NCBI GenBank assembly: GCA_964469185.1
Contig: CAYXYA010000001.1
Span: forward strand, 1-29,906
From: an uncultured bacterium
GTDB lineage: Bacteria; Oederibacteriota; Muellerivitia; Muellerivitales; Muellerivitaceae
Length of the DNA stretch: 29,906 nt
Direction: 5' to 3'
A program made the translations under genes and the position numbers. The notes below the pieces were generated by a model, which worked only from the letters and a program-made list of their open reading frames with translations, made no database searches and was not told where the DNA came from. This document shows, in pieces, positions 5,269-22,643 of the stretch (its first letter is position 1; each line of letters starts with the position of its first letter).

Positions 5269-8200
5269 ATGCCTTTCACGGTCGATACTTCACCGGATAT
5301 CACAGTTTTTGCTGTGCCATATCGCGGTTGGGCGGTTGCAGGATACAACGGTAATAGAAGCCGCAATGCCGCTCCTGTAGATGAAAGTTTATTGGCACTT
5401 CCCTCGTCAGCGCCTAGTGATTTCACGGATCCAAGTAATGCGTCAAATATGAAAGCCTATTTCTTCATTCCTGACGCGATCAAGGGAAGATGGCGGGGTC
5501 CAGCGGGGGATTCTTGGGCCGCGGCGATTTCAATGAGCTCGACTCGGGCAGGCGAGGAAAACGTAGATGTACCAGACCCGAGCAAATTTGGCGGCAGCGG
5601 TACTCCTGTTCATGTGCCTGGAATTATTCGGCTCAGCAACACGACGCAAGGCCAATTAAGCATCTCCGCGCCTGGGGGCGTATTACCCAGTGGGTTTGAT
5701 CTCGGGGCGGGGGTAAGCAGGGGCGGAAGCGCTGGAACGTTGGACTTTAATGACTTGAACGGAGACGGATACCCCGATGTCGTGGGTAACAAGAATGTTC
5801 AATATACTCTTCCTAATGGCGGCTTGGATTCGCAAGTCGCGACAGGAGTGGTCGATCCAAATAACGTTTTGACTTCCCAACTTCGCTCCTCCGACTTGCT
5901 CTCGGGCAGTGTCAACGCGGATGCCTCCTCGATCCCTGGTCAGAACGCTAATGGCAAGGGTCGTGTACCGCCCTTGACCCTCGCCCAAGTGGACCAGTCA
6001 TTGAAGGGGTTCCAGATGCAGCCCCTTGGGTTCAACGGAAGCTTGGGACTCAACCAAGCCGACGAAAAACAAGAACTCATGGATGTTAATGGCGATGGTC
6101 TGCCGGATATCTTGACACTACAATCCATCGGCGGACAAGACCACTTGATGGTGCGCTATAACCTGGGTTACAAATTTACGACTTCCGCCGAAGACTGGGG
6201 CGTGTTCAAGATCAACAGCAACCAGGGCGATACGGAATCCGGCGGGGTGAACTTAGGATTCAATGTCGATCATTATTCTTTCGCGGGCGGGCTCAATGTG
6301 AATGTGAACCATTTTAACGTCAGCGAATCGTTGGTGGACTTGAACGGCGACGGTCTCCCTGACCACGTACGGCAGGATGGTGGCACCTTAAGGGTCAGCT
6401 TCAATACAGGTCATGGGTTTACCTCAGAAGTAAAATGGCAGGGTGGATCGAGTGATATCAGCAAGGGTGAGGGTAATTCACTCGGCGCTGGCGTGTACGC
6501 CACCATTTATATTCCTATTCCGATTCCTTTCGCTCCGTTCAAGATCGTTATCAACTTCGGGTTTGATGGCGCTCAGGACATGAGCCGCCAGAGGGCTATG
6601 TTCCAGGACATCAACGGAGATGGATATCCCGATCAATTGACTTCTGATAAGGAAGGTGATTTAACGGCGCATTTGAACAAGACGGGCAAAACGAATCTTT
6701 TGAAAGTGGTTCACCGGCCTTTGGGCGCCACTATTACTCTCGATTACAAACGTAATGGCAACACCTTCGCCCAGCCTCATAGCCATTGGGATCTGGCCAA
6801 GGTCGTGGTGTTTGATGGCGGTCAGAACCAAAATACAGCCAATACTTTTGGCCAGCATGGCGCGGACTATCAGGTAACGAAATACAGTTATTTTAGGGGC
6901 TTGGACAAACAAGTTCCCGCGCAGCCTATCAATGTTTATGACCGGTTCGAGAGGGACTTTCTAGGTTATGGTGCGGTGACCGAGACCCAAATGGATACCA
7001 CGGATCTCGATGGTTCAAGTCTTGACAGCGCCACGCCTTACCGTCGTGTCATCCGCGAATATCTGAATACGAATATTTATGAAAAAGGTTTGATGACCAA
7101 AGAAACAACGGATGATGTGACTGCGGGCCTTACTTCGCCTTCGCCATTCTTGGAGGCTGATAATACTTATCAATTGGTGGATGTCGATGCTGGCGGAACG
7201 ATAAATCAGTCGGATATTAGTCTTCATCATCCTCAGCAGGTAATTTTCCCGCAAGCAGTGACCATGACTAAGAAATTCTTCGAAGGTGGAACGGGAGAAA
7301 TCGACACCTTCCAGACTTTCACCTATGATCAATTTGGTAACGTCGTGAATTACTTCGACAACGGCAACTCAAACGATGCAGGTACTCAAGTAATGGCAAC
7401 GATATCTTATCTGCCGGATGGTAACCCCTATCTAGCAGGTCTGCCAACGACCATTTTAGTGACCGACAACACGAACACGACTTTACGCCGCCGTGAAGCG
7501 GTTTATGACATATCTACAGGAAACTTAAAAATAGTCAGGCAATACATTGATGGAACGCACACCGCCGAAACGGTCATGACGTATGACAATTCGAACGGCA
7601 ACTTACTTACTACAACGGCACCCGCAAACCTGAACAATCAAAATTATCAACTGAATTACTTGTACGACACTACTGTTCAAACCTATCCAGCCTTGGTTAC
7701 TGACAACCCCCTGCATTACACTTCTTCGATGGCCTATGATTTGAGGTTTGGTAAACCGGTATCGCAAGTGGATGAGAACAGCAAATTGATTACGATGACT
7801 TATGATCCATTTGGGCGCACTGTGACCATTGTTGGACCCTTTGAAACGGGGCCTGATACCCAAGTGCCCAGCAGTTACACGATTGCTTTCGACTATCATC
7901 CGGATGTTTCGGTCCCATACGCGCATACGGCTCACTTCGACAACCAGCATCCGGGCGACCCCATCGAAACGATTTTGTTTACCGATGGGTTGAAGCGCGT
8001 TATTCAAACGAAGAAAGATGATGCGGTTGCTTTGTCGGCGGGTGTATTGCCCACGGACGTTATGACCGTCTCGGGCCGTGTGGTGTTCGACCAAGTTGGC
8101 CGCACTATTCAGCAGTATTATCCTATCACTGAACCTAAGGGTTCGGTTTTTACGGAAAACGCTATGTTAAACATAAATTATGATTCTGATACTTCTGGTG

Positions 8201-11142: not shown

Positions 11143-11143
11143 C

Positions 11144-11626
11144 TTGCAAAACAGAGGAAGGCTGGAACAAAGTTTTAAAAGATTTTCATTTTTATTTATT
11201 TTTGCATTTATGTTTACTTGCTTTGCGAATGCAAAAGATAGGTGCATCCTTTCAATTCAAATGGACAAGTCACAATATACTGAAAAGGATGCAATTCTAT
11301 TAACCTTGTTATTGAAAAACCAAACCAAAGATACAATTGTTCTTCCTGATTTATTGAGCATTGGTGCTGGTACACTTAGTTTTGAAATTAAAAATGAAAA
11401 AGGTAAATCCATAACTTATAAGGGACCGCACTTTAAAATAATACCGCCCGGTAATTTCAAACTTGGCATTGATGAAATTTGGGGTTGCGTAAAAAACTTA
11501 ACTGAATTTTACAAGTTCGAAAAAGGTAAATATTCAGTGAAGTGCATATATAACAATAAGTATTTTGCAGAAAATAATAACGTTTTACGCCTTGAATCAA
11601 ACGTGATTTCATTTGTGGTGGAGTGA
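11144..11626 (+). CDS. Putative exported immunity protein (signal peptide + Ig-like beta-sandwich, BsuPI-like)
   Basis: Directly follows the toxin stop. TTG at 11144 has AAGGA 8 nt upstream (ORF track starts at 11102). Signal-like KRFSFLFIFAFMFTCFANA|KD; AT-rich like the toxin tip. Confidence 0.7.
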   Translation: MQNRGRLEQSFKRFSFLFIFAFMFTCFANAKDRCILSIQMDKSQYTEKDAILLTLLLKNQTKDTIVLPDLLSIGAGTLSFEIKNEKGKSITYKGPHFKIIPPGNFKLGIDEIWGCVKNLTEFYKFEKGKYSVKCIYNNKYFAENNNVLRLESNVISFVVE

Positions 11627-11665
11627 CTTTTAAAATATTCAAACCGCGACTTTCTCCCGACCCCG

Positions 11666-11944
11666 CTAAGATTTTCTTTCTTGATTTGGTTTCCCTTTTT
11701 GTTTGAAGAACACATCTTTGAGATTGTTTCGCTCGGTCAGTAGATGCTCGATGAGTTTCAGGCGTGTTTTTTCTTTTCGCGTCCCGTGCTGACGAATACG
11801 GGTTTTTTCCTCGTCGGAGATCAAGGCGTCGGGGTGCTGGGTTTGCAGCATTTCGGCCACTTCCTCGTCGGTGAAGTCGGGGGCTTTTTCATCCTCGACG
11901 GCTTTCATGCGTTCCTGCCAGTATTTCCAGTCGCGAGTTTCCAT
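11666..11944 (-). CDS. Hypothetical 92-aa helical protein, translationally coupled to the XRE gene
   Basis: TAATG stop/start overlap with the XRE gene at 11944; no recognisable domain. Confidence 0.6.
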   Translation of the reverse strand: METRDWKYWQERMKAVEDEKAPDFTDEEVAEMLQTQHPDALISDEEKTRIRQHGTRKEKTRLKLIEHLLTERNNLKDVFFKQKGKPNQERKS

Positions 11945-12339
11945 TATTCTTTCGCCCCATCTTTGACCCTGGCGGCTTTGAGGACGCGGTCAAGGTATTG
12001 AGCGACGTGTTTTCGCTCGGATTCGGGCAGTTTTTCAACCTGGGAAAACCTTCTTTTCAAGCGTGAGTCTTTCGGTTTTGTTCTTTCCGATTCTTTTTGC
12101 AAACCCAATAATTGATCCGTAGAGACCCCCAAGGCTTTGGCGATAGCGGGTAGGAGATGGGTCGGGGCATGCTGGGTTTGCGATTCATAGTAGGCGATGA
12201 CCCGTTGGGAAACTTCGAGCTCGGCGGCCAAATCACGTTGGGTGTAGCCGGCGGCTTTTCTAATGCGAGCCAACCTTTTCCCAAAAGGGTCTTCCGGGTT
12301 CAAATGACGAGGTTTTTGTTTTGTCAAAATCAGCTCCAA
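11944..12339 (-). CDS. XRE/Cro-C1 family HTH transcriptional regulator
   Basis: FGKRLARIRKAAGYTQRDLAAELEVSQRVIAYYES...LLPAIAKALGVSTDQLLG is a classic HTH_3 pattern. Divergent from the primase gene; exact start uncertain. Confidence 0.9.
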   Translation of the reverse strand: MELILTKQKPRHLNPEDPFGKRLARIRKAAGYTQRDLAAELEVSQRVIAYYESQTQHAPTHLLPAIAKALGVSTDQLLGLQKESERTKPKDSRLKRRFSQVEKLPESERKHVAQYLDRVLKAARVKDGAKE

Positions 12340-12360
12340 AATCGAGATGGGTGTTTAATT

Positions 12361-12412
12361 ATTACTTATACGTATAAGTAATTATAAAACTTCCCTATAG
12401 GTAAGTTTTATA
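12361..12412. promoter_or_regulatory. Two adjacent palindromes (candidate XRE operators); copy at 22370-22421
   Basis: Perfect 22-bp ATTACTTATACGTATAAGTAAT (12361-12382) and a 30-bp palindrome with one mismatched pair (12383-12412) in the divergent promoter region. Confidence 0.6.
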
Positions 12413-12536
12413 TTTTTCCATGTATAAAACCATGTTTTTATCCATGTATTCATCGTATGAGGCTTGAGGGGGTTTTCCCGCCGGTCATGAAAGCAAACGC
12501 AGTGTAACCTTGAATTTAAAACCGACGAAAAAACGG

Positions 12537-12565
12537 TTGACAATTAGATACCAAAATAGTATCAA
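12537..12565 (+). promoter_or_regulatory. Candidate sigma70 promoter for the primase operon; copy at 22546-22574
   Basis: TTGACA-17 bp-TATCAA, overlapped by the inverted repeat GATAC-N7-GTATC. GGAGG SD at 12625-12629 precedes TTG 12635. Confidence 0.4.
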
Positions 12566-12634
12566 ATGCGTACAAGGTATAATTTTAGAAAATTCCTAAA
12601 TAAATATTGACAGGTTTTCTAAGGGAGGTCAGTT

Positions 12635-15082
12635 TTGGGGCCAAAGGGCGGGGGAGTGAAGAAAACCGGGGACGTGGAAGCGCGGGAAGCGATCCAGCGC
12701 CAAAAGATATTGAACCGGGTCATTACCTTTTACCACCAGGCTTTCCTCTCCAATCCCGTGGGGATCAAATACCTTGAAGGGCTGGGGTTGAGGGAAGCCC
12801 CGCTTTTTTCCACTTTCCAGGTGGGCTTGGTGAACGGAACCTTGCTTTCCACCATTCCCGAAGATGGCGAACTACAAGAGAACTTAAAGGCGCTCGGGGT
12901 TTTGAACGGTGACGGCCAGGAGGTCCTGGCCGGATGCGTGGTATTCCCGTGGTTTGATGAGAACGGGGATTGCGGCGGGGCGTGGGGCCTTTCCATGACG
13001 ACACCGATGGAAACGCGTGGGATTTATCTAGGGCCAGGACGGGGTGCCAGCGGCACGCTGTGGCAATGGACACGGGGAGTTTGGAACTACACGGCGGCCA
13101 AGAGAAGCCGGGTAATCATTTTGACCGACACGATTCTTTCAGGGTTGTTCCTAATCCAAGCGGGTTTCCGGGAAGTAGTGGCGGTGAACGGAATATTCGA
13201 TGGACACGGAAAAGAGTTAAGCGCAGACCGCTCATTGAACGGCGACCACTCGCTAAGTGGCGACCGCTCGTTGAGCGGCGATCACTTGAGGCTATTTCAG
13301 CAGTCGGCCACGAGGGAAGTGATCTTGACTTTTGAGAGCGAAAAGATCGAGGAGCAGTTGAGGGGCGAGGAAATATTTTGCCGGAGGGTTACGCTGCCTT
13401 CCGTGATGGCCGACCCGAAGGAGATTCAAAAGGCATTTCAGTCGGTGAACTTTCAGGCTTCGAGGGAAGAAGATATGCCTTTGGTTTCCCAGGAGATGAA
13501 CGTTGTGCCAGCGGCACGTTGTGCCGATGGACAGGGGGTTGAGGAAACAGAAGGCGGATTTGCGGTGCAATACGGGAACCGCCGGTGGGAAGTGAAGGGA
13601 GTGGAGAAGAAGGGCGTGAGGCTAATGGCGACCCTCAAGGTGTGCCGGAAGGCGGGGGAGTTACCGCTGTATTTGGACAGCGTGGATTTGTATTCCAGCC
13701 GTAGCCGGATTTTATTCGGGAAGTGTTGCGCGGTGGCGTTGGGTGAGAAGGACGAGACCATTTACAGGGATTTGGTGGGGCTGATTGAAACGGCGGAAAA
13801 GCACCAACCCAAGGGGGTGGAGTCGAAAAAAGCCCCGCCGATGACCAAGGAAGAAGAAGCGGAAGCTTTCGGCCTCTTGAAAGACCCAAACTTACTGACT
13901 CGTATCCTTGAGGACTTTGACCGGTGCGGATTGACGGGAGAGGAGGACAACAAGCTGATCGGTTACTTGGCGTCCATTTCCCGGAAGTTGGAGGAGCCTT
14001 TGAGCGTGCTCATCCAGTCAAGAAGCGCGGCGGGCAAGTCCACCTTGCAGGATGCCCTGTTGCGGTTTGTGCCGGAGGAGGATTACGAGAAGTACACGAG
14101 GCTCACCGGACAGGCGCTTTTCTACAAGGCCGAGGGCGGGCTATCCCACAAACTTTTGGCGATTGAGGAGGAGGCGGGGGCGAGGGAGGCGGGTTATTCC
14201 ATCCGCAATTTACAGTCCTCCAAGTGTCTTTCGATCGCCACGACTGAGAAAGACTCGCTAACGGGGAAGCTCAAGACGGTGGAATACAAGGTCAAGGGGC
14301 CGGTGGCCCTGATGCTGACGACGACTTCCGTAGACATGGACTATGAGACCCAAAACCGGTTCGTGACCTTGACGATTGACGAGTCCAAGGAAATGACGGA
14401 GCGGATACTTGCCCACCAGAGGCAGCTTCAGACGGCTGAGGGGTTACGCTTGAAGCGGGAGGGGGAGAAGGCGGCGAGGCGGCAGAAGAACGCCCAAAGG
14501 CTTTTGAAGTCCATTTGGGTGGTGAATCCTTACGCCCCGAAATTGACTTTTCCTGCCAACAGTTTGAGGGCGAGGCGCGACCACAAGAAGTATTTGGGGC
14601 TTATCCAGGCGATTGCTTTTTTGCACCAGTACCAGCGTGAGGTGAAGGTGATGACCTTCGAGGGGGAGCGGGTTGAGTACGTGGAGGCAACGAGCGAGGA
14701 CGTGGAGGAGGCCAATCGTCTTATGGCCGGAGTTCTCGGCCAGACGATGGGGGAGCTATCGGCACCGGGGAAGGTGCTCTTGGTCAAGGTGAGGGAAATG
14801 GTCAAGGAGAGGGCTAAAGATCAGCGGGATTTTCGGTTTACCCGCAGGGACATACGGGAGTTTTCCGGGTGGAGCGATTTTCAAGTCAAGACCCATATCC
14901 GGGAGTTGGCCGACCTGGAATACCTGTACTCGGTTTCGGGTAAGAAGGGCAAGGAGTACGTTTACGAGTTGACGGCCCTGGAGGGCGGTGGGGTGGTTGA
15001 CTTGGTGGGTTGGAGGGTACTTGGTGGTGACTTGGAGGCTGAGTTGAAAACAGCTAAACCCCTGTATTCAGGCCGGGTCTAA
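12635..15082 (+). CDS. DnaG-like (degenerate Toprim) primase domain fused to a P-loop ATPase/helicase with a C-terminal winged-helix-like region
   Basis: ITFYHQAF...KYLEGLGL...VVFPWFDENG resembles the DnaG catalytic N-part. Walker A-like SRSAAGKST, Walker B-like LLAIEEE, FTRRDIRE...HIRELADLEYL. No CHC2 zinc finger seen. Confidence 0.75.
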   Translation: MGPKGGGVKKTGDVEAREAIQRQKILNRVITFYHQAFLSNPVGIKYLEGLGLREAPLFSTFQVGLVNGTLLSTIPEDGELQENLKALGVLNGDGQEVLAGCVVFPWFDENGDCGGAWGLSMTTPMETRGIYLGPGRGASGTLWQWTRGVWNYTAAKRSRVIILTDTILSGLFLIQAGFREVVAVNGIFDGHGKELSADRSLNGDHSLSGDRSLSGDHLRLFQQSATREVILTFESEKIEEQLRGEEIFCRRVTLPSVMADPKEIQKAFQSVNFQASREEDMPLVSQEMNVVPAARCADGQGVEETEGGFAVQYGNRRWEVKGVEKKGVRLMATLKVCRKAGELPLYLDSVDLYSSRSRILFGKCCAVALGEKDETIYRDLVGLIETAEKHQPKGVESKKAPPMTKEEEAEAFGLLKDPNLLTRILEDFDRCGLTGEEDNKLIGYLASISRKLEEPLSVLIQSRSAAGKSTLQDALLRFVPEEDYEKYTRLTGQALFYKAEGGLSHKLLAIEEEAGAREAGYSIRNLQSSKCLSIATTEKDSLTGKLKTVEYKVKGPVALMLTTTSVDMDYETQNRFVTLTIDESKEMTERILAHQRQLQTAEGLRLKREGEKAARRQKNAQRLLKSIWVVNPYAPKLTFPANSLRARRDHKKYLGLIQAIAFLHQYQREVKVMTFEGERVEYVEATSEDVEEANRLMAGVLGQTMGELSAPGKVLLVKVREMVKERAKDQRDFRFTRRDIREFSGWSDFQVKTHIRELADLEYLYSVSGKKGKEYVYELTALEGGGVVDLVGWRVLGGDLEAELKTAKPLYSGRV
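13217..13288 (+). repeat. Four degenerate 18-bp tandem repeats in the primase gene (LSADRS/LNGDHS/LSGDRS/LSGDHL); copy at 23226-23297
   Basis: ttaagcgcagaccgctca / ttgaacggcgaccactcg / ctaagtggcgaccgctcg / ttgagcggcgatcacttg. Confidence 0.85.
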
Positions 15083-15114
15083 GGTCATTGGCGGGCTACT
15101 TGGTGGCTTGGCGG
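15000..15114 (+). repeat. Cluster of short TTGGNGG direct repeats spanning the primase stop; copy at 25009-25123
   Basis: ACTTGGTGG at 15000, 15019 and 15098; ACTTGGAGG at 15030; GGTTGGAGG at 15008; CATTGGCGG at 15086; GCTTGGCGG at 15106. Confidence 0.6.
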
Positions 15115-15154
15115 TAGAAGATCTATACCCCCATCGTTGAGAGCTGTCATATCT

Positions 15155-15190
15155 AAAGGGTCAATGACCCGATGGGTCAGCGACCCAAAG
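15155..15190. repeat. Double GGGTC-N3-GACCC palindrome, left copy of a 36-bp direct repeat flanking the recombinase pair; copy at 25164-25199
   Basis: AAAGGGTCAATGACCCGATGGGTCAGCGACCCAAAG; 31/36 identical to 17406-17441. Confidence 0.85.
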
Positions 15191-15339
15191 TGTTTCTGCG
15201 TATCAACAGTTTTATTCCACGAAATCCTTTTCCTATCAGCGTTTTGGCCTTTTGACGGGGCCAGACCCCGCCCTTTCTGAGTCAGTTTTTTGGTATCTCC
15301 ATGCCTGGGCTATGTCCGGGAAGGAAAAACTTTGTCGTA

Positions 15340-15352
15340 GGGTCAATGACCC
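15340..15352. repeat. GGGTCAATGACCC palindrome immediately before the SD of recombinase 1; copy at 25349-25361
   Basis: GGGTCAATGACCC-GAAGGAGG-ACCGT-ATG. Confidence 0.8.
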
Positions 15353-15365
15353 GAAGGAGGACCGT

Positions 15366-16367
15366 ATGGAGGATGGCTTTTTGCGGTTGCGGGGAGAATT
15401 TGGGAAGCAGATGGAGGTGAGGCGGTATTCAGAGGCCACGAGGGAAGCATATAGCGGGAACTTGAGGGTGTTTCTGGAATTCCTGGGAGGACAGGGGGTT
15501 TTGGATATCAGGCGGGTGGGGAGGGAGATTTTGAGGGCGTATGAGGCAAAAGTTTTGGAAGGCCAAACCCAGAAGGGCCGGCCATATGGATGGGGAACCA
15601 AGTGCATGAAAATCCGCTCGGTGAAGAGGCTCTTTGAATGGCTGGAGGAGACCCAAAAGATTTTGGTGAATCCGGCGGAATTTTTGAAGGAACCCAAGAG
15701 AGAAAGTCGTCTGCCCCGTGGAGTTTTGACTCAAGAGCAGGTGGAGCGGGTCTTGGATCAGCCCAACTTGACGGCTCCATTGGGCATCCGTGACCGGGCC
15801 ATCTTGGAGGTCTTTTATTCCACGGGGATACGGTTGGGGGAATTGGTGAGGCTGAATCTTTTGGACGTGGATTTGGAGGGTGGCCTTTTGCGGGTGAACG
15901 GAGGCAAGGGGGCGAAAGACCGGGTGGTGCCATTGGGTGAAGTGTCCGTCAAGTTCCTCAAGGAATACCTAGGCAGAGTGAGGCTGAAATTGAGGACACC
16001 TAAAAGCTCGAAGCATGCGGCGAAAATGGGGCCAGACAGCCAGATTCTTTTTCTGGCTAATCGGGGGACGCCGCTTTTTGGTCCGGCGATAGCGTCAATG
16101 GTTTCGCTAATGGGCAAAAAGGCGGGAGTGAAACTCCGGCCCCATGACTTGCGGCACACATGCGCCACCCAATTGGTGAGGAACGGGGCGGATATATCGG
16201 TGGTGTCGAAACTATTGGGACACTCAGGCGTTGAAATTACTCAAATCTATACGCGGGTGGCGGGGGTGGACATGAAGAAATCCCATGAGAAGGCCCACCC
16301 ACGGGAGAGGGAGAAGGCGCAAATTGTGGAACCTGAAATTGAAATGATGAGGAGGAACAAAGGATGA
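15366..16367 (+). CDS. Tyrosine recombinase 1 (XerC/XerD-like, with N-terminal SAM-like domain)
   Basis: R-K-H-R-H-Y catalytic set intact: RDRAILEVFYSTGIR, GKGAKDR, PHDLRH, LGH, TQIY. ATG 15366 follows a GGAGG SD (ORF track starts at 15252). Confidence 0.92.
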   Translation: MEDGFLRLRGEFGKQMEVRRYSEATREAYSGNLRVFLEFLGGQGVLDIRRVGREILRAYEAKVLEGQTQKGRPYGWGTKCMKIRSVKRLFEWLEETQKILVNPAEFLKEPKRESRLPRGVLTQEQVERVLDQPNLTAPLGIRDRAILEVFYSTGIRLGELVRLNLLDVDLEGGLLRVNGGKGAKDRVVPLGEVSVKFLKEYLGRVRLKLRTPKSSKHAAKMGPDSQILFLANRGTPLFGPAIASMVSLMGKKAGVKLRPHDLRHTCATQLVRNGADISVVSKLLGHSGVEITQIYTRVAGVDMKKSHEKAHPREREKAQIVEPEIEMMRRNKG

Positions 16368-17356
16368 ATGACCTGGATTATTACCTGGAAAAGTGCGGGG
16401 AGCGGATGAGAGTTTTGAATTATGCCGATCATACCTGGGTGATGTACAGCTCCCACTTGAGGCGGTTTTTCTCGTACTTGAAGGAAATGGGGGTGACGGA
16501 GCTTTCGGCGGTGACGAAGGATCATGTGCGGGGCTACCAGACTTATTTTCATGAAAGGCTGACTCCGGAAGGCCAACCGCACGCGGTAGCGACCCAAAAC
16601 CTGGCCTTGATGGCGGTGAAGACTTTTTTCCGGTTGATGCGGGAGGAGGAATACCTGGCGAGCGACCCGGCGAGGGACATTCCCTTTGCCAAGCAACCGC
16701 AGAGGCTACCGGCGTCCATCCTGACGAGCAAGGAAGCGCGCAAGGTTTTGGAAGCCCCGGATTTGGTGACGGCGATGGGATACCGTGACCGGGCGGTGCT
16801 GGAACTACTTTACTCGACGGGAATGAGAACGTCAGAGGTTGGGGCCTTGAAGCTTCAAGACGTGGACACCAACGGGGGATACGCGAGGGTGAACCAGGGG
16901 AAAGGAGGCAAAGACCGGGTGGTGCCATTAGGGAGGATTGCCAGCCGGTACTTGGAGAACTATATCCGCTCCGTGAGGCCGCTCTTGGTGAGGAAAGACC
17001 CGACAAACCCTTACTTGTTTATCACGCTTAGGGGAAGCCGGTTTGGGGCTGATGTGATTTGGCTTATGGTGAAGCGGTGCGCGAGGAAGGCGGGAATCAG
17101 CCGAAACATTTATCCGCACACCTTCCGGCACACTTGTGCCACTTTGATGTTGAAGAACAACGCCAATATCCGGCACATCCAGGAGATGTTGGGCCACGCC
17201 AGCCTGGACACGACGCAGATATACGTATCCGTGACGATCCAGGACTTGAAGGCGGTACACCGCAAATGTCATCCCAGGGAGCGCGACCACCACGCGGAGC
17301 ATGGCCATCATGCGGAGCATGAACAGGTGAGAGAGGTTGAGCAAGGGGTCGAATGA
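16364..17356 (+). CDS. Tyrosine recombinase 2 (XerD-like), ATGA-coupled to recombinase 1; His-rich tail
   Basis: RDRAVLELLYSTGMR, GKGGKDR, PHTFRH, LGH, TQIY. The tail HHAEHGHHAEHE comes from an imperfect 18-bp duplication. Confidence 0.92.
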   Translation: MNDLDYYLEKCGERMRVLNYADHTWVMYSSHLRRFFSYLKEMGVTELSAVTKDHVRGYQTYFHERLTPEGQPHAVATQNLALMAVKTFFRLMREEEYLASDPARDIPFAKQPQRLPASILTSKEARKVLEAPDLVTAMGYRDRAVLELLYSTGMRTSEVGALKLQDVDTNGGYARVNQGKGGKDRVVPLGRIASRYLENYIRSVRPLLVRKDPTNPYLFITLRGSRFGADVIWLMVKRCARKAGISRNIYPHTFRHTCATLMLKNNANIRHIQEMLGHASLDTTQIYVSVTIQDLKAVHRKCHPRERDHHAEHGHHAEHEQVREVEQGVE

Positions 17357-17441
17357 CCCAAGGGGCCAATGGCCCTAGTGAAATTTAAAAGGTGTATATT
17401 TTAAAAAAGGGTCAATGACCCTACGGGTCGCTGACCCAAAG
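17346..17441. repeat. Four further GGGTC/GACCC-family palindromes downstream of recombinase 2; copy at 27355-27450
   Basis: GGGTCGAATGACCC (17346), GGGCCAATGGCCC (17363), GGGTCAATGACCC (17409), GGGTCGCTGACCC (17425). Confidence 0.8.
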
Positions 17442-17450
17442 GAGGTGGAT

Positions 17451-17930
17451 ATGGCAACACTTAAAGAGCAGGTGAAGGACTTGACGCAAAGACTTGAGAA
17501 GCTGGAGAAACGGATGGGGATGGCTCCCTTGAAAGGGGTTTTGGCCGACTTCAAGAAAATGATGGAAAACTTCGATCGGCGAACGTTGGAACAAATTTTC
17601 CAGGGCGAGAGTGACCGAGGTTTGGCGATTGCCTTGATGGGTCAGGCGAAACCCGTTTTGGAGAACGCCAAGGGAGCTATGTCGAAAGCCCGTTGGAAAC
17701 AGGTTCGTGCGGAGATGGAAAACCTGATGGTGGAAGGTGTAAGCAAAAGATGGGTGAAGTCATCCCAGGAGGATTTACAGCGCAAAATACAAAGGCTGGA
17801 GGACATGGGGGAAATTGTTGTGGGTGGCATGGGTGGGCCAATGGTAGGGCACCGTTGGCCGTTCCCCGAACCCCCGAAGCTTGATTTGCGGGACTGGAAG
17901 GAAGACGTATTGGATTCGTTGGCGGGATGA
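17451..17930 (+). CDS. Stand-alone FliG C-terminal-domain-like protein with an N-terminal coiled coil
   Basis: DRRTLEQIF...LAIALMG...MSK...QEDLQRKIQRLEDMGEIVV resembles the FliG_C pattern (DDRSIQRVL...LALALKG...MSK...Q..I...IRRLEEAGEIVI). ATG 17451 follows a GGAGGT SD. Confidence 0.7.
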   Translation: MATLKEQVKDLTQRLEKLEKRMGMAPLKGVLADFKKMMENFDRRTLEQIFQGESDRGLAIALMGQAKPVLENAKGAMSKARWKQVRAEMENLMVEGVSKRWVKSSQEDLQRKIQRLEDMGEIVVGGMGGPMVGHRWPFPEPPKLDLRDWKEDVLDSLAG

Positions 17931-17941
17931 TGAAATGAAGG

Positions 17942-17982
17942 AAGGGCATGGGATCCACGGGGTGGATTTCGTGCCCTTTTTC
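17942..17982 (+). terminator. Rho-independent terminator after the FliG-C-like gene; copy at 27951-27991
   Basis: 17-bp stem AAGGGCATGGGATCCAC / GTGGATTTCGTGCCCTT (3 G-U pairs), 3-nt loop, ending in a T-run. Confidence 0.7.
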
Positions 17983-18015
17983 TGTTTCCATGCAAAAAAG
18001 ATTAAAAGATCGCCC

Positions 18016-18064
18016 TTAGTAGGGTGTGATTACACCCTACTAAAACGCAACGGAAGGATATAAT
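18016..18064 (+). promoter_or_regulatory. Perfect 12-bp inverted repeat (candidate TA operator) and TATAAT -10 box; copy at 28025-28073
   Basis: TTAGTAGGGTGT-GATT-ACACCCTACTAA (18016-18043); TATAAT at 18059-18064, 6 nt before ATG 18071. Confidence 0.6.
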
Positions 18065-18070
18065 CCGACC

Positions 18071-18304
18071 ATGAAGACCACGAATTATTTTAAGAATTAC
18101 GTCGTGCCCAAAAGACCATATCTCAAGGAGGAATGGCTGGAAAGGGCGGCCAAAAGCCCTTTGAAACGGGAGGTACAGTCCGATGGACGAATTCGAACTT
18201 GGATTTACGTGGAAGAGATGGGAAAATACATACGGGTCGTGTTTCTGGAAGATGGCGAAACGGTGCACAATGCCTTTCCAGACCGACGTTTCAAAGGGGG
18301 TTGA
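18071..18304 (+). CDS. Small basic protein, putative RelE/BrnT-like (DUF4258-like) toxin of a type II TA pair
   Basis: 77 aa, ...QSDGRIRTWIYVEEMGKYIRVVFLEDGETVHNAFPDRRF; directly upstream of the DUF2283 gene. Confidence 0.6.
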   Translation: MKTTNYFKNYVVPKRPYLKEEWLERAAKSPLKREVQSDGRIRTWIYVEEMGKYIRVVFLEDGETVHNAFPDRRFKGG

Positions 18305-18306
18305 AA

Positions 18307-18516
18307 ATGAAATTTCATTATGACCGTGAGACCGATTCACTTTATATCGAATTGTCCAAAAAACCGAGCGTGGACAGTAATGAAGTGGAAGATGGAGTTG
18401 TGTTGGATTTTGATGAGAAACACCACTTGGTCGGGATAGACGTTCAACATGCTAGCAAGACCGTTGACCTGAATCACTTGGAAGCGGATTTCATGCCGTT
18501 GGCCTCGGCGGGCTAA
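18307..18516 (+). CDS. DUF2283-family protein, putative antitoxin
   Basis: MKFHYDRETDSLYIEL...SNEVEDGVVLDFDEKHHLVGIDV matches the DUF2283 pattern. ATG is 2 nt after the upstream stop (ORF track overextends to 18133). Confidence 0.8.
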   Translation: MKFHYDRETDSLYIELSKKPSVDSNEVEDGVVLDFDEKHHLVGIDVQHASKTVDLNHLEADFMPLASAG

Positions 18517-18518
18517 AG

Positions 18519-18758
18519 ATGTCGCGCCCCGCAAAGAAGAAAATTCCTAAAATCATTGCCGTGGGCCAGAAAATCGTTCTGATGGAAAATGGCGCGGAGG
18601 GCGTGATTGAAGGACGAACCGAATCTGGCCAGTATGTAGTGAAGTTGAAAAAAGGAAACCAGTTAGTAACCAAAACTGCCGATGAGTTACGACCAGCCTT
18701 TTCCAAAGGCGTATTAGCCCACTTGTCGCCGAGACCGAAGCCTCCGTTTCAACCTTGA
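18519..18758 (+). CDS. Hypothetical small protein, possible SH3/Tudor/KOW-like barrel
   Basis: VGQKIVL..NGAEGVIEGRTESGQYVVKL pattern; starts 2 nt after the DUF2283 stop. Confidence 0.5.
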   Translation: MSRPAKKKIPKIIAVGQKIVLMENGAEGVIEGRTESGQYVVKLKKGNQLVTKTADELRPAFSKGVLAHLSPRPKPPFQP

Positions 18759-19268
18759 TCTAAAAATCTAAAATTTAAAGTTAGACGAATAGGTAAAGGC
18801 CGAGTCGCCTAATCCCCCGCCTTGGTTTCCCCCTTTGGAATCCCTCTTCCGAGGCGCCCCCATTCCAATGAATCCCCAAAGGGGGAAACCCATCCTTCCC
18901 AACACTAAAGACTTTTTTGAATGTGTTGGGTCCCTTTTGGGGGAACCGGCGCGGCCCACGGTCCCCGGGCCGCCCTATCGGGTCACGTCCTTTCTGATAT
19001 TTTTCCCTTTTGGCCACAAGCGGCCGAGGGAATGGTTTACCCGCCCGCCATCCCGTCCGCCCTAGAAGGGCTCCCTGAGTCGAAGACTCCCTGAGAAAAA
19101 GACTGCCAAGAAGCCAAAGCGGAGTAGTAGAATAGAGCGCAATTAACCACCCACATGGCATACGAAATTTCAAAAAGGGGCGTTACTTGAAGGCCACCTT
19201 ACCGAAGTCGAAATCTCCTAAAAACAAACAACCACAAGGGCTTTGTATCTTCGAAGAGGAAGAGGCTC

Positions 19269-19296
19269 ACACGATAAAAGACGATTTATATCGTCT
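19269..19296 (+). other. attP-like (circle-junction) site: ACACGATAAAA-GACGAT-TTATATCGTCT, dif-like 11-6-11 inverted repeat
   Basis: Left arm ACACGATAAAA versus reverse complement of right arm AGACGATATAA gives 9/11 matches around a 6-bp spacer. It sits exactly at the tandem junction. Confidence 0.85.
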
Positions 19297-21151
19297 AACG
19301 TCTGCCGTAGGCCATTTCCGTGGGACGGGTGACGCGAAAGGTTGGAAGAGCGACTACACCCTGAAGATGGACTACGACACTATCCACAACATCACGGAAA
19401 AGAACCAGCATGTGACAGGGCAGTTCACGGGTGATACTCCCAAAGACCGCATGAAGGGAACTTATGATTACAACTACAAGTACACGGGCACGCCTCATGC
19501 GCCGACCGTTATTGGCAATCGTAGTTTCACTTATGACCTGAACGGCAACCAACTTGGGTTCGAGGAAAAGGGACACGGGTCGGATCGCACAATTTCCTGG
19601 GATGAGGAAAACCGTATCCAGTCCATCAAGGATGGAAGCCAGCAGGGAGGCAAATCAACCACCACAGGGCTGACCTTCCAATATGACGACGCTGGACAGC
19701 GCATCATCAAGGAACAGGGCGAAGACACGACCGCCTATATCAACCAGTTCTTTACGGTGAAACAGCCCATGAAGAACAGTGGGGCAATCGAAAGTAAGCA
19801 TATCTTCGCGGGAAGTACCCGTATCTTGACCCAGATCGTTCATGGCGAAGGAAGCGCCGCTGTTGCGGGGGGCGGCAGTGGTGCCAGCTCAACCTCCAGT
19901 TCAAGCTCCTCAACGGGAATAACCCACGGGCACGGCGTTCATTCAACTAACCATGGTGCCAAGAATAATAGCAATGGAAATGGTGGAGGCGGACTAGGCA
20001 ACAACACGGGAACAAATTTTGTGACTATTACAACCGATACGCCGGTTTTTGAGGGTTCGTCCTTGAACTCACAAACGTTGGGTAATGTGGTTCAGTGCGA
20101 TGTGCTTACCCTGTTGACCCTGACGCCTGACAACCAAGGGTTCTACAAGGTGGAGTTTGGCGGCAAGGTGGGTTTTGTGCCAGCGGCTGATGCGGTGGTG
20201 GGCACGTCGCCCAGTTGTGAAGGCACATCGGGAAGCGTGTTACCCAAAGACAACTTTATCTTCTACTACCACACCGACCACCTGGGAAGCACAGGGTACA
20301 TGACGGACTGGCAAGGGAAGGTGCGTGAAAACCTACAGTACACACCCTTTGGGGAGACATGGATCGAGCAACGCCGAGGGATGAAAATTTTTCCAGATTT
20401 TGAGTTCACCTCAAAAATTTTGGATTCTGAGACGGGGCTTTACTATTACGGCGCACGTTATTACGACCCGAGGACAAGCGTGTGGCAGTCAGCAGACCCT
20501 GCATTACTTAAATTTTTGCCAGGTGCAAAAATTAAATATGTTCCGAAATTTGAAAGAGAACCAAATTGGAAATGGGTAATAGGTCTCCCAGGAGAAGGAG
20601 GGGTTTTTGAGCCTTCAAATTTAGGGTTGTTTTCATATGCGGGGAATAATCCTCTTAAATATGCTGACCCGAATGGTGAATATATATTATCAGCTTCCTT
20701 TATGGCTGCTTACCCAAATGCGTCGAAGGAAATAATCAAACTTATTACAAAGTTAAATAAGTTAAAACTAGAAGTTTATAAACAAGTAACTGGAGCGAGC
20801 GCTAAAGAAGTAAAAACCGCTATGACCGAAGGAAAGGGTCCGATAATTACTGGCAGCTTCATCCCAAAATCTTCAGAAGCGCCAAACGGTGCATATGGCC
20901 AACAAATAGATTCTGTTCTTATGTTGGATATTAAAAGTACATTAGATAAATACGAAAAGGGCGAAATCTCAACAAAGTTGTTTGATGCAACTGTCGAACA
21001 TGAAACGGCCCACTACCTTGCTCAAAAACATGGTTTGGAAGATTCGAGTGAAAAGGGAAAACATGAACGAGGAAATGATTACGAGATGGGTGTTTACAAA
21101 GAAATAACTAATGAATCCAATTCCCCTGTCGAAAAAGAAAAGGACAAATAG
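19280..21151 (+). pseudogene. Orphan rhs 3' fragment (tip A), identical to 9271-11142; in frame with a 31-codon element-derived leader from TTG 19187
   Basis: ORF 19187-21151: residues from DDLYRL onward are identical to the C-terminus of ORF 5269-11142. Confidence 0.85.
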
Positions 21152-21152
21152 C

Positions 21153-21635
21153 TTGCAAAACAGAGGAAGGCTGGAACAAAGTTTTAAAAGATTTTCATTT
21201 TTATTTATTTTTGCATTTATGTTTACTTGCTTTGCGAATGCAAAAGATAGGTGCATCCTTTCAATTCAAATGGACAAGTCACAATATACTGAAAAGGATG
21301 CAATTCTATTAACCTTGTTATTGAAAAACCAAACCAAAGATACAATTGTTCTTCCTGATTTATTGAGCATTGGTGCTGGTACACTTAGTTTTGAAATTAA
21401 AAATGAAAAAGGTAAATCCATAACTTATAAGGGACCGCACTTTAAAATAATACCGCCCGGTAATTTCAAACTTGGCATTGATGAAATTTGGGGTTGCGTA
21501 AAAAACTTAACTGAATTTTACAAGTTCGAAAAAGGTAAATATTCAGTGAAGTGCATATATAACAATAAGTATTTTGCAGAAAATAATAACGTTTTACGCC
21601 TTGAATCAAACGTGATTTCATTTGTGGTGGAGTGA
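21153..21635 (+). CDS. Putative exported immunity protein (copy 2)
   Basis: Identical to 11144-11626. Confidence 0.7.
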   Translation: MQNRGRLEQSFKRFSFLFIFAFMFTCFANAKDRCILSIQMDKSQYTEKDAILLTLLLKNQTKDTIVLPDLLSIGAGTLSFEIKNEKGKSITYKGPHFKIIPPGNFKLGIDEIWGCVKNLTEFYKFEKGKYSVKCIYNNKYFAENNNVLRLESNVISFVVE

Positions 21636-21674
21636 CTTTTAAAATATTCAAACCGCGACTTTCTCCCGACCCCG

Positions 21675-21953
21675 CTAAGATTTTCTTTCTTGATTTGGTT
21701 TCCCTTTTTGTTTGAAGAACACATCTTTGAGATTGTTTCGCTCGGTCAGTAGATGCTCGATGAGTTTCAGGCGTGTTTTTTCTTTTCGCGTCCCGTGCTG
21801 ACGAATACGGGTTTTTTCCTCGTCGGAGATCAAGGCGTCGGGGTGCTGGGTTTGCAGCATTTCGGCCACTTCCTCGTCGGTGAAGTCGGGGGCTTTTTCA
21901 TCCTCGACGGCTTTCATGCGTTCCTGCCAGTATTTCCAGTCGCGAGTTTCCAT
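21675..21953 (-). CDS. Hypothetical 92-aa protein (copy 2)
   Basis: Identical to 11666-11944. Confidence 0.6.
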   Translation of the reverse strand: METRDWKYWQERMKAVEDEKAPDFTDEEVAEMLQTQHPDALISDEEKTRIRQHGTRKEKTRLKLIEHLLTERNNLKDVFFKQKGKPNQERKS

Positions 21954-22348
21954 TATTCTTTCGCCCCATCTTTGACCCTGGCGGCTTTGAGGACGCGGTC
22001 AAGGTATTGAGCGACGTGTTTTCGCTCGGATTCGGGCAGTTTTTCAACCTGGGAAAACCTTCTTTTCAAGCGTGAGTCTTTCGGTTTTGTTCTTTCCGAT
22101 TCTTTTTGCAAACCCAATAATTGATCCGTAGAGACCCCCAAGGCTTTGGCGATAGCGGGTAGGAGATGGGTCGGGGCATGCTGGGTTTGCGATTCATAGT
22201 AGGCGATGACCCGTTGGGAAACTTCGAGCTCGGCGGCCAAATCACGTTGGGTGTAGCCGGCGGCTTTTCTAATGCGAGCCAACCTTTTCCCAAAAGGGTC
22301 TTCCGGGTTCAAATGACGAGGTTTTTGTTTTGTCAAAATCAGCTCCAA
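21953..22348 (-). CDS. XRE-family HTH regulator (copy 2)
   Basis: Identical to 11944-12339. Confidence 0.9.
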   Translation of the reverse strand: MELILTKQKPRHLNPEDPFGKRLARIRKAAGYTQRDLAAELEVSQRVIAYYESQTQHAPTHLLPAIAKALGVSTDQLLGLQKESERTKPKDSRLKRRFSQVEKLPESERKHVAQYLDRVLKAARVKDGAKE

Positions 22349-22643
22349 AATCGAGATGGGTGTTTAATTATTACTTATACGTATAAGTAATTATAAAACT
22401 TCCCTATAGGTAAGTTTTATATTTTTCCATGTATAAAACCATGTTTTTATCCATGTATTCATCGTATGAGGCTTGAGGGGGTTTTCCCGCCGGTCATGAA
22501 AGCAAACGCAGTGTAACCTTGAATTTAAAACCGACGAAAAAACGGTTGACAATTAGATACCAAAATAGTATCAAATGCGTACAAGGTATAATTTTAGAAA
22601 ATTCCTAAATAAATATTGACAGGTTTTCTAAGGGAGGTCAGTT

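What the first reader, a model, noticed from the sequence alone, without database searches (positions are those of the whole stretch)
19269..19296. dif-like 11-6-11 recombination site half-embedded in Rhs coding sequence
Seen: ACACGATAAAA-GACGAT-TTATATCGTCT has arms matching 9/11 as inverted repeats around a 6-bp spacer. The right arm doubles as codons L-Y-R-L of the rhs tip. In the diverged tip B the arm (CTGTATCGGTT) still keeps TATCG in register. The host-side left arm at 9260-9270 (ATTATGGGTAT) lacks the CGATA motif. Established: XerC/XerD sites such as E. coli dif have two 11-bp arms and a 6-bp central region, with the right arm starting TTAT as here. Inference: the element targets a site conserved by protein-coding constraint (YD repeat), and two different recombinases could explain tolerance of an asymmetric host arm.
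Basis: partly seen in the sequence, partly recalled or inferred. Interest (0 to 1): 0.85.

Follow-up and report, generated by a model that had tools for sequence, protein, structure and literature searches.

The report
Recombinase crossover site inside Rhs toxin gene
The 28-base site is the joint where a 10-kb mobile element cuts itself into and out of a bacterial Rhs toxin gene; half of the site is the toxin gene's own conserved coding sequence, so the element swaps in a new toxin tip in frame, a concrete mechanism for a long-discussed kind of toxin diversification.

Summary
ACACGATAAAA-GACGAT-TTATATCGTCT lies at 19269-19296 and its arms match 9/11 as inverted repeats.

The site is the end-to-end (attP-type) joint of a 10,009-bp element (9271-19279, repeated exactly at 19280-29288). 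GACGAT is the only sequence shared by the left, middle and right junctions.

Contigs from a second sample also carry the joint, and the integrated junctions are seen too.

About 20 related elements, from several phyla, show the same 11/12-6-11/12 layout at their junction with an Rhs fragment. In each lineage the element-side arm is the reverse complement of a different conserved Rhs coding motif. The arms covary and the spacer is always two codons.

Both recombinases are catalytically complete and Xer-like, but score below the XerC/XerD cut-offs.

So this is a core-type attachment site of a Xer-like tyrosine recombinase pair. It resembles dif in layout only. The TTAT resemblance is incidental. 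The role of having two recombinases is untested, and single-recombinase relatives exist.

This scan has met the same class of Rhs tip-swapping element before on other DNA (at least 28 genomes). I found no paper describing it.

The parts
19269..19296 (+). attP-type joint (element right end | GACGAT | start of the element's own Rhs tip): the finding itself
   Evidence: 9/11 inverted arms. Joint also present in Logan contigs of runs X1 and X2.
9260..9287 (+). attL: host arm ATTATGGGTAT | GACGAT | element arm TTATATCGTCT, an in-frame fusion of the host Rhs shell to tip A
   Evidence: The ORF 5269-11142 is continuous. An X1 contig carries the host-left sequence as a loose end at the tip A start.
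29278..29305 (+). attR: element arm ACACGATAAAA | GACGAT | displaced tip B arm CTGTATCGGTT
   Evidence: 7/11. An X3 contig spans 29026-29350 without differences.
9271..19279 (+). Element copy 1 (10,009 bp)
   Evidence: Exact repeat, spacing 10009.
19280..29288 (+). Element copy 2, identical. It may be an assembler's second pass through a circle or tandem loop.
   Evidence: Depth is about 2.2-2.8 times the flanks in X1.
5269..11142 (+). Rhs/TcC-like carrier gene (1957 aa), whose last 624 codons come from the element (tip A, Tox-MPTase3-like HExxH end)
11102..11626 (+). Candidate immunity gene with a signal peptide (element cargo)
   Evidence: No family hit. The function is inferred from position only.
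11944..12339 (-). HTH_3 (XRE/cI-like) regulator
   Evidence: Conserved in relatives.
12635..15082 (+). 815-aa DnaG_N/Toprim plus MTBMA_p00010 P-loop protein (primase-helicase-like replication protein)
   Evidence: feature search, a lead only. No Pfam, NCBIfam or PDB sequence hit. Conserved next to the recombinases.
15252..16367 (+). First Xer-like tyrosine recombinase (likely start ATG 15367 behind GGAGG)
   Evidence: (the R, K, HxxR, H and Y residues align with E. coli XerD).
16364..17356 (+). Second Xer-like tyrosine recombinase
   Evidence: (XerD 1a0p, E 5.5e-41).
17415..17930 (+). FliG_C-like small protein (element gene, also present in L011 and L146)
18133..18516 (+). DUF2283 protein
29289..29906 (+). 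Displaced original tip B (runs off the contig), 73-81% identical to tip A over the repeat stretches found (77% over the first 197 nt)

Best explanation
The 28-bp sequence is the core-type attachment site (attP form) of a 10-kb integrative, probably self-replicating element. The element carries a promoterless Rhs C-terminal tip with its immunity gene.

The element's two Xer-like tyrosine recombinases are inferred to bind the two inverted 11-bp arms and to exchange strands at the edges of the 6-bp central region (GACGAT, the two Asp codons of Y-G-Y-D-D-L-Y-R-L). The left arm is the non-coding right end of the element. The right arm is the first codons of the element's own tip.

The chromosomal target (attB) offers the same central region and a similar right arm, because both are fixed by a conserved YD-repeat motif. 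Its left arm is unrelated.

Recombination fuses the host Rhs shell in frame to the incoming tip and pushes the old tip downstream as an orphan.

Shown: the junction sequences, the in-frame fusion, a precise end-to-end joint in two samples, the same layout with covarying arms in about 20 relatives, and catalytically complete Xer-like recombinases.

Inferred: which protein binds which arm, the cleavage positions, and the order of strand exchange.
For: (1) Junction mapping. The exact 10,009-bp repeat starts at 9271 and 19280 and ends at 19279 and 29288. attL, the middle joint and attR share only GACGAT.

(2) Contigs built by another assembler. An X2 contig (1816 bp) and an X1 contig cross right end -> tip A. 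An X1 contig shows attL. An X3 contig shows attR. The element has 8.5-10.1 word depth against 3.4-4.2 for the flanks in X1.

(3) Relatives with independently mapped junctions. In L010, identity between tip and orphan begins exactly at the spacer GATGCG, and the arms are 9/11. In L133, L153 and L098, identity begins at or 1 nt before the spacer.

(4) Inverted arms around a 6-bp spacer at the element/Rhs boundary in W, L010, L153, L133, L117, L100, L144/L147, L137, L017, L016, L177, L104, L148 and L013. They score 7-9/11, which puts each site in the top 0.01-1% of positions in its locus. Host-side arms in attL score 2-6/11.

(5) Control. The NNPVNxxDPxG motif inside intact rhs genes has no such inverted repeat (mean 2.8 against 5.9 for junction-type sites; Mann-Whitney p 5e-4, even with some intact-gene sites misfiled as junctions).

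(6) Arm covariation over 20 sites. 73% of cells are paired against 55% in shuffles (0/500). The covariation score is 0.49 against 0.20 (0/500), and against 0.08-0.21 when partners are slid. 51 cells show a change on both sides, against 20 expected.

(7) Both recombinases hit the XerC/XerD models (221-290 bits) and E. coli XerD (E 1e-39 to 1e-41). For the first recombinase the R, K, HxxR, H and Y residues are shown aligned to XerD; for the second I read the same motifs in the translation. First and second genes form separate, co-diverging clades in 52 loci.
Against: - There is no biochemical evidence that these proteins bind or cut here.
- No empty attB contig was seen, but contigs drop rare forms.
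- The tandem copy may be an assembler's loop estimate, so tandem insertion and circle plus single insertion cannot be told apart.
- In two relatives the 6-bp spacer differs between attL and attR (L011 GATGGG/GACATC, L016 GTGGCG/GGGCAG). A classical homology-dependent overlap region does not predict this.
- L098 and L011 have only 6/11 arms.
- Three of the 20 sites (L100, L144, L137) were found by the inverted-repeat scan itself.
Confidence: 0.8

Rival explanations
1. Tn554- or SE-like mechanism. The 6-bp centre is a coupling sequence that need not match the target. Only one pair of strands is exchanged, and replication finishes the job (copy-out or copy-in), with the two recombinases acting at different ends. 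This is a variant of the main reading, not its opposite.
For: There are two conserved tyrosine recombinases and a 6-bp centre. The element carries a primase-helicase-like gene. The spacer is heterologous between attL and attR in L011 and L016. No empty site was seen although the joint is abundant. Features of SEs and Tn554 are as described in PMC10214605.
Against: - Both recombinases are ordinary-size and Xer-like, not one small and one large.
- No Tfp, Srap or TnpC counterpart was recognised among the element's genes by Pfam or NCBIfam, though these were not searched for specifically.
- In five of seven mapped pairs the spacer is identical on both sides.
- Contigs cannot show absence of attB.
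Confidence: 0.2
2. A genuine dif/Xer system or an IMEX: the host's XerC/XerD act on a dif-like site carried by the element.
For: The layout is 11-6-11. One arm starts TTAT. The recombinases' best family hits are XerC/XerD.
Against: - The element encodes its own pair, and this pair travels with the element in 52 loci.
- Scores are below the equivalog cut-offs.
- Arm sequences change with the targeted Rhs motif, not with the host.
- The site lies in a toxin gene.
- No other gene in this 82%-complete genome scores higher on the XerD model than the element's own.
Confidence: 0.04
3. Ordinary homologous recombination between Rhs repeats (the circular-intermediate model of Jackson et al. 2009), with the palindrome a by-product of repetitive YD codons.
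For: Tip A and tip B are 73-81% identical downstream of the junction. PMC2935791 proposes homologous recombination with circles.
Against: - The sequence to the left of the junction is unrelated between host and element, and the shared block is 6 bp.
- The same register recurs in many lineages, each with its own arm.
- Intact rhs genes lack the inverted repeat at the same motif.
Confidence: 0.04
4. Assembly artefact: a free plasmid wrongly joined to an rhs gene, or a false duplication.
For: The window is a whole contig of a fragmented metagenome bin (533 contigs). Two exact 10-kb copies cannot be verified from contigs of short-read runs.
Against: attL, attR and the end-to-end joint each occur in separate Logan contigs, from three runs. 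Six shared bases cannot cause a k-mer misjoin.
Confidence: 0.03

Closest known systems
XerC/XerD-dif (and XerA, XerH, XerS sites): simple tyrosine recombinases on 28-bp sites
   Same: Two inverted ~11-bp arms around a 6-bp central region. A pair of paralogous recombinases lacking a separate arm-binding domain. Best sequence matches are the XerC/XerD models and E. coli XerD.
   Different: No sequence kinship with dif beyond TTAT in one arm. The recombinases score below the equivalog cut-offs. The site lies in a mobile element and a toxin gene. The function is integration, not dimer resolution. attB has only one good arm.
[quoted passage not shown]
   Same: Site-specific elements with two or more tyrosine recombinases, imperfect terminal inverted repeats, a 6-bp centre, a circular form and no conjugation genes. 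The spacer heterology seen in L011 and L016 recalls their 6-bp footprints.
   Different: No large recombinase. No Tfp, Srap or TnpC counterpart was recognised. The element carries a primase-helicase-like gene. One 'terminal repeat' is target-type coding sequence. Found in groundwater and soil phyla, not Gammaproteobacteria or Firmicutes.
Rhs C-terminal displacement and orphan tip arrays (Jackson et al. 2009, PMC2935791)
   Same: An incoming tip with some core sequence displaces the resident tip, which stays downstream. A circular intermediate is involved.
   Different: [quoted passage not shown] Here a dedicated recombinase pair and a fixed 28-bp site do the job.
rAID-1 arrays of Bacteroidales (bioRxiv 10.1101/471110)
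   Same: A XerD-like recombinase linked to cassettes of the polymorphic-toxin world, with repeated junction sequences.
   Different: rAID-1 collects orphan immunity genes in an integron-like array. It does not splice a toxin tip in frame into a delivery gene.
Prophages that integrate into the 3' end of a gene and bring a replacement end (for example phage 21/e14 in icd, or tRNA-gene integrases). This comparison is from my own knowledge and was not checked here.
   Same: attP contains a copy of the target gene's 3' part, so that integration keeps an open gene.
   Different: Those elements restore the same product. This one deliberately changes it by supplying a new toxin domain.

Membership tests
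Core-type site of a simple (Xer-like) tyrosine recombinase | Two inverted binding arms flanking a 6-8 bp overlap region | tested here: met
   9/11 arms around 6 bp in the window. The same layout is seen in about 20 relatives with covarying arms. The innermost arm pair is usually complementary and the outer spacer bases never are (alignment).
Core-type site of a simple (Xer-like) tyrosine recombinase | The crossover lies within the overlap region | tested here: inconclusive
   Identity shared by attL, attP and attR is exactly the 6 bp in the window. In L010, L133, L153 and L098 it starts at or 1 nt before the spacer. Cleavage points cannot be mapped from sequence. Two pairs have unlike spacers.
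Core-type site of a simple (Xer-like) tyrosine recombinase | A catalytically complete tyrosine recombinase is encoded nearby | tested here: met
   Two Phage_integrase proteins are present. The R-K-HxxR-H-Y residues of the first are aligned to XerD; the same motifs are read in the second's translation.
XerC/XerD-dif chromosome dimer resolution | The recombinases are XerC/XerD equivalogs | tested here: not met
   221-250 bits against cut-offs of 330-335 (TIGR02225/TIGR02224), and 255-290 against 371 (NF002331).
XerC/XerD-dif chromosome dimer resolution | The site sequence matches the dif consensus and is conserved with the host lineage | tested here: not met
   Arms differ between elements according to the targeted Rhs motif. 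The dif sequence itself was recalled from memory, not retrieved.
XerC/XerD-dif chromosome dimer resolution | A single site at the replication terminus, dependent on FtsK | not testable with these tools
   The bin is fragmented into 533 contigs. The site lies in a toxin gene and a mobile element, which argues against this.
IMEX (elements exploiting host Xer) | No recombinase of its own, and integration at host dif | tested here: not met
   The element encodes two recombinases, conserved with it in 52 loci.
Tn554 / SE family | [quoted passage not shown] | tested here: not met
   Both recombinases are ~300-370 aa. Pfam and NCBIfam scans recognised no such partners among the element's genes, though those libraries may not model them. 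The family's features were taken from PMC10214605.
Tn554 / SE family | A 6-bp centre that may differ between the two ends, and no empty site after circle formation | tested here: inconclusive
   The spacer is unlike in L011 and L016 but alike in five other pairs. No attB contig was seen, but contigs cannot show absence.
Rhs tip-swapping integrative elements (a class met repeatedly in this scan; not found in the papers searched) | HTH, primase-helicase-like gene and Xer-like recombinase(s), with an Rhs tip upstream and a start-less Rhs fragment downstream | tested here: met
   Earlier notes are listed.

The most novel reading that the evidence does not exclude
A large, cross-phylum family of self-replicating elements uses Xer-like recombinases on sites whose one arm is a conserved Rhs coding motif. 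In each lineage the element-borne arm has evolved into the mirror image of a different motif (DxLNR, GQYFD, HNDHLG, NTEDRL, YYYDPFG, NNPVNxxDPxG), always with a two-codon spacer. This would be the dedicated, integrase-driven vehicle for Rhs C-terminal displacement that Jackson et al. (2009) said was not known. It may tolerate unlike spacers, as Tn554/SE elements do.
Probability: 0.55. Interest if true: 0.8.

Novelty: new variant of a known kind. Interest (0 to 1): 0.66.

Why it matters
Rhs and related polymorphic toxins diversify by replacing their C-terminal tips. The accepted model rests on homologous recombination with hypothetical circles, and explicitly notes that no integrase is known to accompany Rhs (PMC2935791).

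Here the crossover site, its 6-bp centre, the circle or tandem joint and the recombinase pair are all visible. The comparative pattern shows how a mobile element can aim at a protein-coding motif and stay in frame.

This makes the mechanism directly testable with plain att-site substrates. It also gives a sequence rule for finding such elements and their boundaries in genomes: an element end that mirrors the first four codons of a conserved Rhs motif, six bases away.

Tried and rejected
- **Alternative register.** GACGAT-TTAT-ATCGTC is a perfect 6-4-6 palindrome in the window, and ACGAT occurs as a direct repeat. No relative shows either (L010 GATGCG...ATCGCC is no palindrome), and a 4-bp centre is too short for a tyrosine recombinase.
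- **The simple motif CGATWAWW-N6.** Downstream of the recombinases it fits only the three closest elements. More distant elements needed a motif-free inverted-repeat scan.
- **blastn of the right-end region.** It found only an ~85-nt conserved block 280 nt inside the end, not the end itself.
- **Extra copies of the arm word** that could serve as accessory sites: none.
- **Rfam:** no hit in the element.
- **Viral contig collection:** no relatives.
- **Free-circle contigs among ~10-kb contigs of relatives.** L177 and L181 have no terminal overlap. L177 gave one more attR-type junction instead.
- **Single-recombinase lineage (target WLNRDPLGE).** I could not find a 6-bp-spaced inverted repeat at its junction. 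Its end looks different.
- **Literature searches** for a Xer-like element in rhs genes found nothing relevant.

Full report
**What is in the window**

The sequence at 19269-19296 reads ACACGATAAAA GACGAT TTATATCGTCT, as reported. The window is a whole 29,906-bp contig of a fragmented metagenome bin: 2.58 Mb, 533 contigs, 82% complete. Its relatives are labelled candidate division FCPU426. The runs that hold it are groundwater metagenomes.

A 10,009-bp unit is present twice without a single difference, at 9271-19279 and 19280-29288. Left of the first copy lies a 1957-aa Rhs/TcC-like gene that starts at 5269 and runs in frame through the junction to 11142. It is preceded by an SpvB-domain gene. 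Right of the second copy lies a diverged Rhs fragment, tip B, which is 73-81% identical to the start of the unit over the repeat stretches found.

The three junctions are:
- attL: ATTATGGGTAT|GACGAT|TTATATCGTCT
- middle joint: ACACGATAAAA|GACGAT|TTATATCGTCT
- attR: ACACGATAAAA|GACGAT|CTGTATCGGTT

The only block common to all three is GACGAT. The reported site is therefore the end-to-end joint of the unit, which is the form a circular or tandem element would carry (attP).

**Genes of the unit**

In order, the unit carries:
- the last 624 codons of the Rhs gene, with a weak Tox-MPTase3 (HExxH) end;
- a small exported protein in the position of an immunity gene;
- an XRE-type HTH gene on the other strand;
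- an 815-aa protein whose nearest feature-space clusters carry DnaG_N, Toprim and an MTBMA_p00010 P-loop (a lead);
- two overlapping tyrosine recombinase genes;
- a FliG_C-like gene;
- a DUF2283 gene.

Both recombinases score best on the XerC/XerD models, at 221-290 bits, but below every curated cut-off. Their best solved relative is E. coli XerD, with E 1e-39 to 1e-41. The R, K, HxxR, H and Y catalytic residues of the first recombinase align with XerD, and I read the same motifs in the second's translation.

**Is the joint real?**

Logan contigs of four runs of the same study were laid on 19230-29906.
- An 1816-bp contig of run X2 and a 2514-bp contig of X1 run from the right end of the unit across the joint into tip A.
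- An X1 contig shows tip A preceded by the host-left sequence (attL).
- An X3 contig spans attR without a difference.
- In X1 the unit has word depth 8.5-10.1, against 3.4-3.6 for tip B and 4.2 for the attL contig.

So the integrated form and the end-to-end joint both exist in the samples, and the unit is roughly 2.2-2.8 times as abundant as its flanks. Whether that reflects two tandem copies or one copy plus circles cannot be told from contigs of short-read runs. The second copy in the contig may be an assembler's coverage-based pass through a loop. No empty attB contig appeared, but contigs drop rare forms.

**More than chance?**

An 11-6-11 inverted repeat with 9/11 matches occurs at 0.044% of window positions, about once per 2.3 kb. 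The palindrome alone proves little. What carries weight is that it lies exactly on a junction fixed beforehand by the repeat, and that the same holds in relatives.

**Relatives**

The block HTH / 815-aa protein / recombinase / recombinase is common. It is found in five of 24 family relatives and in many metagenome and genome contigs from FCPU426, Desulfobacterota, Verrucomicrobiota, Planctomycetota and Rokubacteria. Very often an Rhs tip lies upstream and a start-less Rhs fragment lies downstream.

Junctions mapped without reference to any palindrome:
- L010: the upstream tip and the downstream orphan become identical exactly at GATGCG. The site is CTGCGATTAAT|GATGCG|CTTAATCGCCG, with 9/11 arms.
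- L133, L153 and L098: identity begins at, or one base before, the spacers CCCGGC, GCGGGC and CATAAC.

A motif-free scan for 12-6-12 inverted repeats downstream of the recombinases then picked out the precise start of the Rhs-like reading frame in W, L010, L153, L100, L144/L147, L137, L017 and L016. Further cases were found in L177, L104, L148, L013 and others.

Scores are 7-9 of 11, which is the top 0.01-1% of positions in each locus. The host-side arms in attL score 2-6 of 11.

**The arm mirrors the coding motif**

The targeted motif differs between lineages:
- D-x-L/F-N/Y-R of a YD repeat (W, L010, L011)
- G-Q-Y-F-D (L133, L153, L117)
- H-N-D-H-L-G (L098, L100)
- N-T-E-D-R-L (L144, L147)
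- Y-Y-Y-D-P-F-G (L137)
- N-N-P-V-N-x-x-D-P-x-G (L013, L016, L017, L020, L021, L104, L120, L126, L148, L177)

In each lineage the element's non-coding end is the reverse complement of the first ~11 nt of that motif, six bases away.

The NNPVN motif provides a natural control. Inside intact rhs genes it shows no such inverted repeat (mean 2.8 of 11). At junction-type sites the mean is 5.9 (Mann-Whitney p 5e-4), even though my crude classifier filed several intact-gene sites as junctions.

I treated the two arms of 20 sites like a helix:
- 73% of cells pair, against 55% in shuffles (0 of 500 as high) and 30-48% when partners are slid.
- The covariation score is 0.49, against 0.20 in shuffles and 0.08-0.21 when slid.
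- 51 cells carry a change on both sides, against 20 expected.
- One pair, T at -5 and A at +5 from the spacer, is invariant.

Three of the 20 sites (L100, L144, L137) were found by the inverted-repeat scan itself. The others were fixed by junction mapping or by peptide motif.

In the alignment the outermost spacer bases are never complementary, while the innermost arm bases usually are, so the centre is six bases. In every lineage I checked these six bases are two whole codons.

**The two recombinases**

In a tree of 121 sequences, 43 of 48 first genes fall in one supported clade. The second genes fall elsewhere, nearer to chromosomal Xer proteins of Bacillota. The sub-clades of first and second genes mirror each other. 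The pair is old and co-diverges, as expected of partners with different roles.

The reconstructed attP is nearly symmetric, which does not by itself call for two specificities. Fourteen to sixteen loci carry a single recombinase and still abut a conserved Rhs motif (WLNRDPLGE), with a differently built end.

**What does not fit**

In L011 and L016 the spacer differs between attL and attR: GATGGG against GACATC, and GTGGCG against GGGCAG. The arms remain in register. This could reflect later events in these arrays. It could also mean that spacer identity is not required, as reported for Tn554 and the SE elements, whose 6-bp centres act as footprints (PMC10214605). I keep this as a variant of the mechanism at about 20%.

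**Comparison with what is known**

In layout and in enzyme type this is a Xer-style 28-bp site. It is not dif, for four reasons:
- the arms follow the targeted Rhs motif, not a host consensus;
- the TTAT start is peculiar to this element;
- the enzymes fail the equivalog cut-offs;
- the element brings its own enzymes, and they are the best XerD-model matches in this incomplete genome.

It is not a Tn554/SE member, since it has no large recombinase and no recognisable Tfp, Srap or TnpC counterpart.

Its effect is the C-terminal displacement described by Jackson et al. [quoted passage not shown]

Four full-text searches found no description of a Xer-like element inserting in rhs genes.

Notes of this scan record the same class of element in at least 28 other genomes, and palindromic core sites in Rhs core ends in two others. 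I treated these as leads only. My junction and arm analyses were done independently here.

**Verdict**

- Observation: confirmed.
- Interpretation: right about a recombinase core site half-embedded in constrained coding sequence; wrong or unproven about kinship with dif and about the role of the second recombinase.
- Most likely mechanism (0.8): a Xer-like recombinase pair exchanges strands at the edges of the two-codon spacer between an element-borne arm and its mirror image in the Rhs gene, giving in-frame tip replacement.

Noticed in passing
window 18913-18998; L010:15381-15466; L013:10320-10411: An ~85-nt G+C-rich non-coding block about 280 nt inside the element's right end is 76-80% identical in two relatives whose proteins are only 50-60% identical. 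There is no Rfam hit. It could be an origin, an accessory recombinase site or a small RNA.
   Followed up: partly
window 15157-15192, 15340-15352, 17345-17375, 17406-17441: GGGTC-N3-GACCC palindromes, partly in pairs, bracket the two recombinase genes and abut ribosome-binding sites. A CGGGTC word also lies at the right end of the single-recombinase lineage (L163-L173).
   Followed up: no
20 junction sites of alignment A2 (W, L010, L011, L133, L153, L117, L098, L100, L144, L137, L017, L016, L177 and others): In every lineage checked the 6-bp spacer is exactly two codons, so the right arm starts at a codon's first base, across six different target motifs. In-frame fusion does not require this, so it needs another explanation.
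   Followed up: partly
L011:4927-4932 against 15519-15524; L016:158-163 against 7835-7840: The spacer differs at three of six bases between the attL and attR of the same element, although the adjoining right arms are nearly identical.
   Followed up: partly
window 19268 / 29277: In run X1 the contig that crosses the end-to-end joint carries A instead of C, 12 nt left of the spacer. The copy bearing the joint therefore differs from the assembled sequence by one base.
   Followed up: no
L133:11042-12650; L153:11868-12413 and 19630-19750: Successive orphan tips are each preceded by the same ~45 nt of element right end. In L133 no element backbone lies between them. In L153 a second element with a zinc-ribbon primase gene lies between them. 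Arrays seem to grow by repeated insertion and backbone loss.
   Followed up: partly
L154, L157-L160, L162-L167, L170, L173: This sister lineage has the same HTH and primase-helicase-like genes but only one recombinase. It abuts the Rhs motif WLNRDPLGE, and no 6-bp-spaced inverted repeat was found at the junction.
   Followed up: partly
G000 whole genome: The element's two recombinases are the best matches to the XerD model in this 82%-complete genome (250 and 221 bits). The next best reach about 157 bits (C444, C235), and none passes the cut-off.
   Followed up: no
window 19187-19279, 29196-29288: The reading frame of the downstream tip stays open for 93 nt into the element's right end, with TTG at 19187. 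The same holds in L010 and L011 but not in L133. Whether orphan tips are translated from there is unknown.
   Followed up: no
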